Assembly (NCBI RefSeq): GCF_009914755.1
Contig: NC_060926.1
Length of the DNA: 64,000 nt
Reading direction: 5' to 3' (one strand)
Source: the human T2T-CHM13v2.0 reference genome, Homo sapiens
The notes below the pieces were generated by a model. The model saw only the letters and a list, made by a program, of their open reading frames with translations. It was not told where the DNA came from and did no database searches. A program made the position numbers and the translations under genes. Shown here piece by piece: positions 41,228-50,165 of the stretch (its first letter is position 1; each line of letters begins with the position of its first letter).

Positions 41228-44200
41228 TTAATGGGGTAAATAAAAGACCAAAATACATGGAGAGATATACTGTGTTTATGTATAGAAGAATTCATATTGT
41301 TGAGTTTTCTAATTCCTTTCAAAATGACATATAGATTCACTGCAGTCCCAGATGCAATTTAGTAATTTATTTTGTAGAAACTGGCAGGCTCATTCTAAAA
41401 TGTATACATAAAGATAATGATCTGTAATAATCACAATTAATTTCAAACAACAAAAATTAAGTTGGAAAGTTCATGCTACCTAATTTCAAGATTTATCATA
41501 AAAATACTAATCAAGTCAATAAAATCAACCAAGACCTAGTTATATGGTGTCTATAAGAAACTCACATTAAATATAAGGAAACAGATAGATTAATATGTGG
41601 ATATTTAGAATTATATACCATGCTAACACAAATCAAAATAAAGTTGAAATAGTAGCTGTATTAATTCCAGTCCAAGCAGACTTTAGAACAAGAAAAATTA
41701 GCATGGCCAAAAGGGACAATGCATAGCAAAAAGGCAGTTAATTATCAAAGAAAATGTAACAATTCTAAATATGCACGCATCTAACTACAATACATCAAAT
41801 ACAGGAGGGAAAACCTTACAGGCGTCCAAAGAAATACACAGACAAATTATTTTAGTTGGTGATTTCATCACATCTCTTTTGGTGACTGACATATAAATCA
41901 AAAAGAAAATGAATAAAAATTACTTGAACTAAGGAGCACCATCAGTCAAAACTATTTAATTGACATTTATAAAATTGTTCATCCAACAATAGCATAATAC
42001 ACATTATTCTGAAGCTTACAAATAACATTTACTAAAATAGGCCACATTCTGACAATTAAACATTCTTTAAGAAATGTATAAGAAATTATACAAAGTTTGC
42101 TCTCATAAAACAGTAAATAAAATAGAAATCAGTAACAAAAAGGTAGCTTAAAAATAACAAATAAAGCATATGTGGAGATTAAGCCACAAACATGTACATA
42201 ATATATAGGTCAAATAAGAAGTCTCAAGAAAAATTTTTAAAAGTATTTTGAAATAAATGAAAATTAAAAAAGAATTTATCAAAATCTGTGGTATGCAGCA
42301 GTAGCAGTGTTTTTAGGGGCAAATGTATCACATGGAATTTGTATGTTAAACTAGAAAACATAAAATCAATCATGTAAACTTCCAGACTAGGAAGCTAGAA
42401 AAAGAAAGGCAGTATAAGCTTAAATCTAGCAGAAAAATACATAAAAATTTGAGCAGAAATCAATTAAATTGAAAACAGAAAAAAAACCACAGAAAATCAA
42501 TGAAACCAAAAGCTAGCTCTTTGAAAGCGTCAATAAAATTGATAAACCTCTAGCCATGCTAAACATGAAAATAAAAAAGATACAAATTACCAAGATCAAA
42601 AAAAGGAAGGGGTTATCATACTGAACCCATAGGCATTAAAGGATAATAAATGAATATTATGAACAACTCTATTCTCACAAATTGAAAACACACATGAAAT
42701 CAAACAACTTGAAAGAAAAAAATTACAAAACTCATACAATGTAGATAGGTAATCTGACTAAGCCTATCTACATCTAAGAAATTGAATTAATAATTGATCA
42801 CCTCCCACAACAGACAGTACCAGGTTCAGATGGTTTCACTGGGGAATTCTACCAAACACTTAAGAAAGAAATAACACCAATTCATTACAATCTATTTCAA
42901 AAACTATAAGGAGAAGACTGCTTCCTAACTCATTCTATGAGACCAATGTTATCCTAATCCCAAAGCCAAAGAAATTACAGAAAAGGAAAATGAAAGACCA
43001 TTATCTTTCATGAACACAGATGCAAAACTCCTGTACAAATTATTAGCAAATTAAATCTGAAAATGTAAAAAGAGAATTACATTATGAACAAGTGCAATTT
43101 ATTTCATATATGCAAAGCTGATTCAACATTTGAAAATAAATTAACATGATCCATTACATCAAAAGACTAAAGAAGAAAAACCATATAATCATATTAATAG
43201 ATGGAGAAAAAACATCTGACAAACTCCAACATCCATTCATCTTAAAAACTCTAAGCAACTTAGGAATAAAGAGGAATAGCCTCAACTTACAAAAGAACAT
43301 CAGCAAAAACTTAACACCAACTTATACCTAATGGCGACTAACTAAATGCTTTCAATCTAAGATTAGCAACAACACAAGAGTGTCTCTTCTTCATTCCTAT
43401 TCAACATTGTACTGAGAGTCACGGCTAAAGCAATAAGATGTGGAAAATAAAGAAAAGGTACACAGATTGAGAGGGAAGTAAAAAACTCTGTCATTCATAG
43501 ATGATATGATTGTCAACATAGAAAATGTAGAATCAACAGCAAGAGCATAAAAATTAAAAGTACTGGAAGAAATGTACAAGTACAGCAAGGTTTGAGGATA
43601 AAAGGGTGATATAGAAAAATCAATCGCTTTCTTATATACCAGGAATGAATACTTGGAAATACAAATTGAAAACACAATATTATTTATATTAACACCAAAG
43701 AAATTATATCATTAGGTTTAAGCGTAGCAAAGTATATAAAAGATCTATATGAGATAAGCTACAGAAACCCAATGATATAAATCAAATAAGATCTAAATAA
43801 ACAGATATCCCATGGTTATGAATAGATATTGTTAAGATAACCTTTATTTTCCACTTGATCTATAGATTCAATATAATACCAATCAAAATCCAAGCAAATT
43901 ATTTTGTGGATATTGAAAGCTAATTCTAATAATTATGAAGATTAGTAAAAAGACTCAGAATAGCCAACTGAATTCTGAAGAAGAACAAAGTTGAAAAACT
44001 GACACTACCCAACTTTAACCTATTACTATGGATTACAAGTAAATCTATAGTAATCAAGACAGTCTGGTATTGGTGAAAGAATATACAAATAATTCAGTGG
44101 AACCAAATTGATGCCCAGGAATAGACCAACAAAAATACAGTCAATTGATCTTTGACACAAAGCAAAGGCAATTAAATGAAGAAAGAAGTCTTTTCAGTAA

Positions 44201-44279
44201 ATGGTGCTGCAACAATCACATATCCAAGTACCAAAAAAATAAATTTTGGCACAGAACTTATGTCCTAAAAATTAAATCA

Positions 44280-45278
44280 TGGTGTATATGTGCCACATTT
44301 TCTTAATCCAGTCTATCATTGTTGGACATTTGGGTTGGTTCCAAGTCTTTGCTAATTGTGAGTAGTGCTGCAATAAAAATACATGTGCATGTGTCTTTAT
44401 AGCAGCATGATTTGTATTCCTTTTGGCACAATTACACCATGGAATACTATGCAACCATAAAACATAATGAGTTCATGCCCTTTGTAGGGACATGGATGAA
44501 GCTGGAAACCATCATTCTCAGCAAACTATAGCAAGGACAAAAAACCAAACACCGCATGTTCTCACTCATAGGTGGGAATTGAACAATGAGAACACTTGGA
44601 CACAGGAAGGGGAACATCACATGCCGGAACCTGTTGTAGGGTGGGAGGAGGAGGGAGGGATAGCATTAGGAGATATACCTAATGTAAATGATGAGTTAAT
44701 GGGTGCAGCACACCAACATGGCACATGTATACATATGTAACAAACCTGCACGTTGTGCACAAGTACCCTAGAACCTAAAGTATAATTTGAAAATATATAT
44801 ATATATTTTATATATATATTATATATATATTTTATATATATATTATATATATATTTTATATATATATTATATATATATTTTATATATATATTATATATAT
44901 ATTTTATATATATATTATATATATATTTTATATATATATTATATATATATATATATATAATATATATATATATATATAGAATTTAGGTCCCCTAACTCCA
45001 AAAAATAAAAATAAAAACAAAAAAATAGAGAATAAACAGAACAAAAAAGTGACTACACATTACCCATAAATGTCAGGAAGGGACTACGCTTAAGAAGAGA
45101 AAGGAAGCTGTGGATGGGGATGGGCATGGAGGTAGGGGTGCTTCTGAGCCCTACCAATATTCTACTTCTTGACCTTGATTGGTGATTATACAGTGTTCCT
45201 ATTATAGTAATTCATTAAACTGCATACTTATGTTTTTATGCAATTATTATGTGTTTTTTCTTAAAAAGTAAAATATTA
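44280..45278 (+). mobile_element. Short L1PA4-like insertion: inverted 5' piece, forward 3' end, TA tail, extra ~300-bp segment
   Basis: Reverse L1 44280-44430, forward L1 44433-44790, TA array, non-L1PA segment 44980-45278; TSD AAAAATTAAATCA at 44267-44279 and 45279-45291. Confidence 0.9.
44791..44978. repeat. Pure A/T minisatellite: 6 x ATATATATATTTTATATATATATT plus (TA)n
   Basis: 24-bp unit repeated perfectly across 44797-44940. Confidence 0.95.
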
Positions 45279-45358
45279 AAAAATTAAATCAAAATAGATC
45301 TTAAAGCTAAATGTAAAATAAATTTTAAGACTTTTGCAAGATAATACAGATGCTTCTT

Positions 45359-47247
<1,889 letters not shown>

Positions 47248-50165
47248 TATAGAAGAAAATGTAGGTGATGATTTGTTTGGTATTGAGTTTTTACATATGA
47301 TACCAAAAGCATGTTTTATGAAAGTAAAAAAAAAAAAAAAAGCTGATATTTACTTAAATTAAAAACTTCTGCCCTGAAAAAAACAACAGCAAAGAAAAAA
47401 AATAATAAAATAAAAAACAAGCCCTAGAGAGGGATAAAACATTTGCATAATAAAAAGAACTCTTAAAACTCGTTAATAGGAAAACAAACAACCTGATTTA
47501 AAATGGATATGATAGTCATTAAAAATGACTTAAAATAACAAATAAACATATAAAATATGTTCAACATCGTATTTTATTAAATTTCAAATTAAAACAATAA
47601 TGAGATACCACTATACACATATTACAATGGCCCAAATCCAAAACTCTGAGAACACCAAATTCTGGTGATGATGTAGAGCTAAATGTCCTCTTATTTGCTA
47701 ATGGTGAGAATGAAAAGTGGTACAGCCACTTTGGAAGACTGTTTGCCAGTCCATTAGAAAGCTAAATACAGTCTCAGCATACTGTCCAGCAAGTGCGCTC
47801 CTAGGTATTTAACAAAAGGCTGAAGATTATGTCCACACAAAAACCTGTACACAAATGTTTTAACAGCTTTATATGTTACTTCCCAAATTTGAAGCAACCT
47901 AGATGTCCTCCAGTAGGTGAATGGGCAATCCATATAACATTCTGCAGTAAAAAGAAATGAGCTATCAAATCACAAAAGACATTAAGGAAACAAATTGATA
48001 TTGCTAAGTGAAATAAACGAGTTTGAAAGGCTACAGACTCCATGATTACAAATCTGTGACAAAAACTACAAGAAAAGACGAAACTCTGGAGACAGTAAAA
48101 AGTTCAGTAGTATCCAGTGGTTTGAGGAGTGGGGTAGAGATAAAGAAGTGAAGCACAGGATGTTTTTAGGGCAGTCAAACTATTCTACATGATACTATAA
48201 TGGTATGTAAATGACAGTATACTTTTGTCAAAACCCAGGGAACTGTACAACACAGAGTGAACCCAAATGTAAACTACAGACTGTAGTTAATAATAATGTG
48301 TTAATATCAGTCTGTCAGTTGCAACGAATGAACAATACTAAAGCAAGATGTTAATAATTGAATAAACTGTGTGGGAGAAAGGCAAGGCATATTGGAACTC
48401 TATACTTTGCTCAATTTTTCTGGAAACTAAGGTGTTTTTAAAAACAAGATGTATTATCTAGAAAATCAATATGTGATTGTTCTTCACGAAGAAAGACTAA
48501 ATTTGAGAAATAACAAATGATACTTGCTTAGATGCATTAATTTTAATGCTTCAGTATGAACTACAATATTTGTTGAATATCACTGTGCTATTAATTTTGG
48601 AATTTCATATGAAATCTTTGTCTACTTAAAATTATGTGTTGACAATTTCATTCTCTTTAGTAATTATATTCTTTAAAAGAAATGACAGAAAAGTTTAGGA
48701 TATCTGACTTTATCCAATATTCTTCTCACATTGCCTCTTTCATTTAACAGATTTCATGCAGCAATCCACTTCAATAAAATATATATAATCATCTGTCTTT
48801 AAAAATTTATTAGTATAGTTGAGCTTCCTTTATTAGTAGAATCTTGTCAAGACTTGAAATTCCATGATGGGTTAATTAAGAAAAATTATTCTGAGAGATA
48901 CATTATCAAGCTTGATAAGATCACCCATCTAATTACAGAGGACTCCCTTGTGGCTTACCTACATTGGTACTTTAATTACTTCAAGAAAAGATAATCCCCT
49001 GTTCTATTTCTTACAGACCCATTAATGGTATGTTACAACAGAATCAGGTGTCTATTAAGAGTCTAGTAGTAAAAAAAAAAAAACAAAAAAACTGATTCCT
49101 TGTCATTTTTAAACAATAAACCTGATGCCATGCACTCTCTTTGTTGAAGATAATTTCTCACATAAATTTTCTACTCAACTTTATGTAAAGAAGAAAGTTT
49201 GTCATAAATAAAAAATCATAACCCCTGCCTCACTAACCATATCCCAGCATTCACTTTAATATAATCACCTAAATGCTCATATTGTGATAAGCATCACAGA
49301 TCATCATCGTATGGGTGACTAATAACACATTGAGGTTGCCATCATTTGGTCTCAGGTTAAAGTTTCTTTAATGTCTCTTGTGGGTCAAGCAATTGTCAAA
49401 CTGAGGATAATGTCTCTCTCTCTCTCTCTTTCACTCTCTCTCTCTCTTTCATTCTCAGAATGCTTCCACACATTTTTAGCAAGCTCCTTAACTTTTATCA
49501 GCTTAAGAATTTTCCTATTCACTTAATTAGTCATTGAAAATTAGTCAGGGGACCATATTTCTTGGGTACTCAAGTTTGTTTTAGCATTATATATTGAAGA
49601 ATATATAAAAGAGCAAATATAATCCTCTGTATAACTGATTACATTTCTATAAAACTTCAGTGCAAGAATTCAATATGAACTCAAGCCCAATACTAGGTAT
49701 ATTTCTTTCTATATTTGCATATCATCATCAATAGTAATAAAGCCATTATATTAAATTAAGAAACAGACACAAATCCCTTAATGAATTTTCTCTGGGTCTT
49801 CATTGCTTTGAAGTAAAGTGAAAATGGGTTGCGAGAAAACAGGGGAATCAGTTCAGGAGTAATAAAGTATTTCAAGATTGTAATCATCTTCAGAGTATTT
49901 TATTTTCCCACAGTCACAAAAATCAATGAAGCCTCTCTCAGGGTTTGGAACCTACTAGTTATTGCTATTCTTGGCAGTAGATAATAAGCTTATAATCTGT
50001 AGGCATTGCAAGTGATCCAAGACATTTGAGAAGAGGAACAACCCCTTATCTTCCATTTTTCATGAGTGGACAATAGCAAGAGAAACAGAAGTTATTAGAA
50101 AAATAGAAAGCAAGACAGAGAAGACATAATTTGACTTTATAACTTATTAGAAAACTCCTTAAATT

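What the first reader, a model, noticed from the sequence alone, without database searches (positions are those of the whole stretch)
44267..45291. Single L1 insertion with both a twin-priming 5' inversion and a probable ~300-bp 3' transduction
Seen: the 13-bp direct repeat AAAAATTAAATCA (44267-44279, 45279-45291) brackets four parts: reverse L1 (44280-44430), forward L1 3' end starting TACACCATGG (overlapping the inverted piece by ~9 bp), the TA array, and 44980-45278, which is not L1PA and ends in a short A-rich stretch with ATTAAA near 45215. Removing the insert restores the host L1 (AAAAATTAAATCAAAATAGATC). Established: twin priming yields 5' inversions, and read-through of the weak L1 poly-A signal yields 3' transductions. 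Inference: the extra segment was carried from the flank of the source L1 and should identify its locus. Part of it resembles an ancient L1M 3' end.
Basis: partly seen in the sequence, partly recalled or inferred. Interest (0 to 1): 0.7.

Follow-up and report, generated by a model that had tools for sequence, protein, structure and literature searches.

The report
Parentless L1 transduction with 5' inversion
An old jumping-gene (L1) insertion on chromosome 2 carries a roughly 275-base copy of chromosome 5 DNA, likely dragged along from a parent L1 that is missing from that chromosome 5 site in this genome; this is a known kind of event.

Summary
The structure is real. An exact 13-bp target-site duplication (44267-44279 / 45279-45291) at a canonical L1 nick site brackets: an inverted L1 piece, a forward L1 3' end (16-18-bp overlap, not ~9), a TA array, a 21-nt linker of unsettled origin, and 45002-45276. 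That last piece has one close paralogue, G000:C5:109226592-109226885. C5 is the native site. The copy starts at the first base of an old Alu monomer's A-tail and ends 24 nt after the poly-A signal of an old L1. But no L1PA lies within the 19 kb read around it, so the source element is absent. Best reading (0.72): one twin-primed insertion with a 'parentless' 3' transduction whose source L1 was never fixed. Both features and the missing parent are described in print. Against it: no poly-A tail is left, the tail is less diverged from C5 than same-age L1 copies are from each other (12 of 326 windows as low), and the linker resembles the host flank (post hoc, 5-6 of 3000 controls). These keep a two-event reading alive (~0.13). 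Ape orthologues decide. Interest 0.25.

The parts
43912..44266 (+). Host: old L1 ORF2 remnant, left flank (extends further left, not delimited)
   Evidence: Collinear alignment with the neighbouring L1 read in sense
44267..44279 (+). 5' target-site duplication; the bottom strand reads TTTTT/AG at 44266|44267, a canonical L1 endonuclease site
   Evidence: site consensus TTTT/AA as used in PMC13009371
44280..44423 (-). Inverted L1 piece, positions -130 to +17 relative to the forward start; 2-nt microhomology with the TSD end (44278-44279)
44424..44786 (+). Forward L1 3' end (L1PA5-like by recalled diagnostic bases, not tested against a library); first 16-18 bp duplicated in the inverted piece; no AATAAA at its end
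44787..44978 (+). Internal tail: TA array, 24-bp period, 7.5 copies, 97% matches; likely the decayed and expanded tail of the source L1
   Evidence: 8 of 29 relatives have TA runs in their tails (read by eye)
44979..44999 (+). 21-nt linker of unsettled origin; candidates are a short earlier transduction (best hit C23:22762721, 1 mismatch) or a degraded copy of the host flank 44253-44268
45000..45276 (+). Copy of G000:C5:109226592-109226885 (+): Alu-monomer A-tail, then old L1 3' end; 7 substitutions in 255 aligned sites, a 2-nt insertion, deletions of 3 and 19 nt (the latter removes the AATAAA)
45277..45278 (+). Two untemplated or residual-tail bases; no poly-A tail
45279..45291 (+). 3' target-site duplication
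45292..45344 (+). Host old L1 resumes

Best explanation
The 1,012 bp between two exact 13-bp repeats hold an inverted and a forward L1 piece plus a copy of chromosome 5 DNA, and likely came from one L1 insertion whose parent L1 likely sat in an Alu tail on chromosome 5 and was likely never fixed. Inferred steps: (1) an L1PA5-like element inserted at the TTTT/A site at the start of the Alu-monomer A-tail at C5:109226592; (2) its transcript, lacking a poly-A signal at the L1 end, ran through the tail, the linker and the Alu tail and was cleaved 24 nt after the AATAAA of the old L1 downstream; (3) L1 endonuclease nicked chr2 at 44266|44267 and reverse transcription began at the RNA 3' end; (4) the second DNA end primed internally on 2 nt of complementarity, giving the 144-bp inversion with a 16-18-bp duplication; (5) the parent allele was lost by drift, leaving the empty C5 site; (6) the terminal tail and 22 nt near the 3' end were lost during or after insertion. 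The linker is most likely a short transduction that the parent already carried.
For: One exact TSD brackets everything, at a canonical nick site. One close paralogue in the genome, same strand as the L1. C5 is native: the old L1 is continuous on both sides of the Alu and collinear with an independent C13 copy, which also has the AATAAA. The copy begins at the first base of the Alu tail and keeps all four A-run units, and CT|AAAA there is a canonical nick site. The end point lies 24 nt after AATAAA; 3.2% of positions in the 19 kb and 6.6% in the local 2.1 kb meet that by chance, while 274 of 349 transduction ends do (PMC13009371). The chr2 L1 end has no AATAAA, unlike 19 of 29 relatives (by eye). 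Precedents: inversions in about 30% of partnered transductions, termination at a downstream truncated L1's signal, two-generation tags, absent sources; internal duplication in 283 of 1,703 inversions, median 22 bp.
Against: The source L1 is not seen (19 kb read, more flank not available). No terminal poly-A. Tail versus C5 differs at 7 of 255 sites, against a mean of 14.0 for same-age L1 pairs; 12 of 326 windows are as low, 5 of 326 without CpG sites (windows not independent). The L1 pieces differ at 20 of 496 non-CpG sites from their relatives' majority base; the rate test gives p 0.002-0.08 by how sites are counted. The linker's first 17 nt resemble the host flank just 5' of the TSD (5 and 6 of 3000 controls; with the Alu end added, 1 and 1 of 3000; post hoc). 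No sibling L1 shares the private substitutions and no second copy of the C5 flank was found (40 of 1747 candidates scored).
Confidence: 0.72

Rival explanations
1. Two events. First a twin-primed L1 inserted with a ~27-bp TSD (44253-44279). Later the C5 segment, from 4 nt inside the Alu end to the poly-A site, was dropped into the 3' TSD copy as an L1-mobilised non-L1 RNA or a break-repair patch, splitting it into the linker and the apparent 13-bp TSD. No L1 ever sat on C5.
For: Linker versus host flank: 13 of 15 matches with a 2-nt gap, anchored at the TSD. The last 4 linker bases match the Alu end at 3 of 4. It explains the missing source, the low tail divergence and the lack of poly-A. Templated sequence insertions of both classes are described (PMC5110952).
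Against: It needs a 27-bp TSD (most are 10-20 bp, PMC12350158), a nick with two departures from the consensus, 2 substitutions plus a 2-nt indel in 15 nt while the other 13 nt stayed exact, and a second rare event inside ~30 bp. The 13-bp reading has a canonical nick site. The resemblance was noticed after about 8 comparisons. The linker also has a 1-mismatch genomic match on C23.
Confidence: 0.13
2. One event with a template switch: reverse transcription began on a polyadenylated C5 RNA, reached the Alu A-tail, and jumped by A-tract pairing to the tail of an L1 RNA. No L1 on C5.
For: The junction falls at an A-rich tract; single TSD; end point after AATAAA; no source L1.
Against: Catalogued L1 chimeras place the non-L1 RNA 5' of the L1, the opposite polarity (PMC13174262 passages). 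The copy keeps the whole Alu tail up to the body. No + strand promoter for a C5 RNA was identified (transcription not testable). The linker stays unexplained.
Confidence: 0.08
3. As the best explanation, but the parent L1 was fixed on C5, mobilised late, and was then removed precisely by recombination between its A-rich TSDs.
For: It would explain an L1 piece that looks older than the tail.
Against: Precise deletions are very rare: 12 among 54,037 primate Alus as quoted in PMC10531181. The age gap is mild.
Confidence: 0.04

Closest known systems
Twin-priming L1 insertion with 5' inversion and internal duplication (10.1101/2024.08.27.596794; passages and part of section 4 read)
   Same: Inverted 5' piece, forward 3' piece, short duplication at the junction (16-18 bp; reported median 22 bp, 17% of inversions), TSD, nick site
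   Different: Old germline copy; junction microhomology is 0 nt read strictly, 3 nt if one T was added later
'Proxy elements' and atypical transductions (PMC13009371; section 10 read whole, other passages)
   Same: Truncated reference L1 with a transduced tag whose source is absent from the reference; end at the signal of a downstream truncated L1; possible two-generation tag
   Different: Those sources are human-specific and still segregate; this one is an older subfamily, presumably extinct, and has no terminal poly-A
'Parentless' 3' transductions of dog LINE-1 (PMC13141329; passages read)
   Same: Donor flank found with no adjacent L1 (24 of 27 there)
   Different: Dimorphic dog insertions; here an old primate insertion
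Templated sequence insertion polymorphisms, classes 1 and 2 (PMC5110952; passages read)
   Same: Distant DNA copied with the donor intact; end 10-30 nt after AATAAA (class 1); no poly-A (class 2)
   Different: The segment has no TSD of its own and follows an L1 3' end inside one TSD; it mixes features of both classes

Membership tests
Twin-primed 5'-inverted L1 | 5' piece inverted, 3' piece forward, from adjoining L1 positions | tested here: met
Twin-primed 5'-inverted L1 | One TSD and an L1 nick site | tested here: met
Twin-primed 5'-inverted L1 | Short deletion or duplication at the junction | tested here: met
   16-18-bp duplication
Twin-primed 5'-inverted L1 | Microcomplementarity at the second priming site and junction | tested here: inconclusive
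   2 nt at the TSD end; 0-3 nt at the junction; too short to exceed chance
Partnered 3' transduction with source in the reference | Source L1 directly upstream of the donor flank | tested here: not met
   no L1PA match in C5:109217000-109235999; not filed here
Parentless (proxy-type) 3' transduction | L1 3' end, internal tail, then non-L1PA sequence, inside one TSD | tested here: met
Parentless (proxy-type) 3' transduction | Donor locus elsewhere, same sense, native there, no adjacent L1 | tested here: met
Parentless (proxy-type) 3' transduction | Poly-A signal 10-30 nt before the end point | tested here: met
   24 nt, on the donor; deleted in the copy
Parentless (proxy-type) 3' transduction | Terminal poly-A tail | tested here: not met
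   2 nt only; may have decayed, so the claim is 'works like', membership likely but not shown
Parentless (proxy-type) 3' transduction | Source L1 seen at the donor in another haplotype or species | not testable with these tools
   no related genomes held
Parentless (proxy-type) 3' transduction | L1 and tag arrive together in primate phylogeny | not testable with these tools
   no outgroup genomes
L1PA5 subfamily | Diagnostic 3' UTR bases | tested here: inconclusive
   variant shared with most close relatives; subfamily name recalled, no repeat library held
Class 2 templated insertion (rival) | No TSD, no poly-A signal, no poly-A tail | tested here: not met
   end point follows AATAAA on the donor; only the tail is absent

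The most novel reading that the evidence does not exclude
The apparent single insertion is a fossil of two: a C5 RNA or DNA fragment with no L1 of its own was captured into the 3' target-site duplication of an older twin-primed L1, forging a structure that passes as a 3' transduction. Some 'parentless' transductions would then never have had a parent.
Probability: 0.13. Interest if true: 0.5.

Novelty: new member of a known kind. Interest (0 to 1): 0.25.

Why it matters
Modestly. It marks the exact base on chromosome 5 where a vanished active L1 likely stood in an ape ancestor, which other primate genomes can test at once. It also shows a dead L1's poly-A signal likely ending a younger L1's read-through. 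No gene is annotated in the window and no function is implied. If the two-event reading held, it would warn that parentless transductions can be mimicked.

Tried and rejected
Source L1 near the donor: none in 19 kb; flank beyond that was not read. More daughters of the donor: only chr2. Origin of the linker: 10 other hits at up to 2 mismatches against 44 for the reversed control; none has the L1PA 3' end within 1.5 kb; a 28-mer at up to 3 mismatches hits only itself. The best hit (C23, 1 mismatch; 0.08 expected by base composition) has a nick-like site before it but is not established. Five of 45 pairs of hit flanks are related (z>3), so several hits are one old repeat (MIR-like by recall). 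Linker as decayed Alu end alone: p 0.02-0.03, rejected as a whole-linker origin because the rest of the copy is 97% identical. Sibling L1s with the same private changes: none sharing more than 2 of 4. Old-L1 relatives did not match the last 175 nt (0 of 19 at z>5); the single C13 copy did. APOBEC editing to explain the older-looking L1 piece: G-to-A excess is shared with the neighbouring L1 and sits in the G-tract, rejected. Reverse direction (chr2 to C5) rejected. Bacterial promoter scan on C5 is not informative. TSD lengths of relatives were too noisy to use.

Full report
Observation. The 13-mer at 44267-44279 recurs exactly at 45279-45291 and nowhere else in the window on either strand. The bottom strand at 44266|44267 reads TTTTT/AG, a canonical L1 nick site. 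With the insert removed, the flanks align collinearly with L1 ORF2 of the neighbouring element; the right flank alone is weak (16 of 300 shuffles reach its score) but lands at the adjoining position.

The L1 part. 44280-44423 is L1 in reverse and 44424-44786 is the L1 3' end in forward sense. In 25 of the 26 relatives with upstream L1 (29 fetched) the inverted piece runs to +17 of the forward start, in one to +13. The overlap is therefore 16 bp, or 18 with the 2 nt shared with the TSD. This is twin priming with internal duplication, seen in 283 of 1,703 somatic inversions with a median of 22 bp (10.1101/2024.08.27.596794, passages). Nearest relatives are 94-95% identical (40 of 3021 candidates scored). 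The subfamily is L1PA5-like by recalled diagnostic bases only. A TA array follows; TA-containing tails occur in 8 of 29 relatives (by eye).

The foreign segment. A search with 44980-45278 gave one close paralogue, G000:C5:109226592-109226867 at 93%, E 5.6e-111, plus two weak 45-57-nt hits. A global alignment extends it to 109226885 = 45276, with 7 substitutions in 255 sites, a 2-nt insertion and deletions of 3 and 19 nt on chr2; an end-point scan peaks there, though a longer end scores nearly as well. On C5 the stretch begins at the first base of the A-tail of an old Alu monomer set in an old L1. Sequence before the Alu matches old L1 copies (6 of 19 at z>5), and a C13 copy is collinear with C5 on both sides of the Alu and shares the terminal AATAAA. 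C5 is thus the donor and the deletions are derived on chr2.

The missing parent. No L1PA-like match lies in C5:109217000-109235999; the best L1 hits are 36-123-nt pieces at 67-81%. The Alu body abuts the copied tail, so a source would have sat exactly there, at a canonical nick site. The copy ends 24 nt after the C5 AATAAA; chance is 3.2% over the 19 kb or 6.6% locally, and 274 of 349 somatic transduction ends show a signal in this window (PMC13009371). The chr2 L1 end has no AATAAA. The transcript would also have passed four AATAAA in and just after the Alu tail; bypass of nearer signals is reported. That paper's section 10 (read whole) describes absent sources, termination in a downstream truncated L1 and two-generation tags. 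In dogs 24 of 27 mapped tags lacked an adjacent L1 (PMC13141329, passages). In 1,019 human genomes 466 of 5,311 L1 insertions carry a transduction (PMC12350158, passages). That a source active in a large ancestral population is often lost by drift is my inference.

Results against. (a) No terminal poly-A: 2 nt separate the C5 match from the TSD. (b) Age: the L1 pieces differ from their relatives' majority base at 15 of 352 and 5 of 144 non-CpG sites, like the neighbouring L1 (18 of 351, 5 of 144). The tail differs from C5 at only 5 of 251, over two branches. Rate tests give p 0.002-0.08. In regions not used to select relatives, 14 same-age copies differ by a mean of 14.0 per 255 sites, and 12 of 326 windows are at 7 or fewer (14 of 29 relatives were long enough; windows not independent). 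The gap is mild and unresolved; the 95% interval for the tail is 1.1-5.7%. (c) The 21-nt linker has no sure origin. Its first 17 nt align to the host flank ending at 44268; 5 of 3000 shuffles and 6 of 3000 random 21-mers do as well, and 1 and 1 of 3000 when its last 4 nt are scored against the Alu end. This was noticed after about 8 comparisons. A competing origin is a 1-mismatch site on C23 with a nick-like sequence before it, itself not far beyond chance.

Weighing. One event needs a lost parent (common), a short inherited tag (71% of somatic tags are under 100 bp), a lost tail and a low draw in divergence. Two events need an unusually long TSD, a poor nick site, heavy decay of half of one TSD copy and a second rare insertion within ~30 bp. 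A template switch has the opposite polarity to catalogued chimeras (PMC13174262, passages; its supplements concern 5' chimeras and were listed, not read). I put 0.72 on one event, 0.13 on two, 0.08 on a switch, 0.04 on precise excision of a fixed parent.

Novelty. Each feature and their combination are in print. I found no paper on this locus: one search returned 0 papers, one search listed four canine papers, and none of the 10 listed names the nearest lncRNA. The classic genome surveys (Szak 2003, Pickeral 2000) and Ostertag and Kazazian 2001 were not held and are recalled only; their tables could list it. Verdict: a real, well-preserved new member of a known kind, with a testable lost parent. 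Interest 0.25.

Noticed in passing
window 45359-46967 (-): A second L1PA of similar age, 1.6 kb, with a 14-bp TSD (45345-45358 / 46968-46981) and a TA tail, 67 bp from the insert. The two 3' ends form a ~380-bp, 90% inverted repeat 573-778 nt apart; 329 of 364 identical, so not parent and daughter.
   Followed up: partly
window 44796-44977: The TA array has a 24-bp higher-order unit at 97% identity, suggesting recent expansion; possibly length-variable among people.
   Followed up: no
G000:C5:109230000-109231000 (L006): CpG island (GC 0.59, 60 CpG per kb) about 3.1 kb downstream of the donor site; gene not identified.
   Followed up: no
L008:1501-1521 (G000:C23:22762721): Best match to the 21-nt linker (1 mismatch), in an old repeat, with a nick-like site just before it and no L1PA 3' end within 1.5 kb; a possible earlier donor.
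   Followed up: partly
window 45345-45358 and 46968-47250: The sequence into which the second L1 inserted resembles a MER2-type DNA transposon (recalled, not tested), itself inside the old host L1: three nested layers.
   Followed up: no
window 46657-46681: A 9-bp unit repeated 2.8 times inside the neighbouring L1.
   Followed up: no
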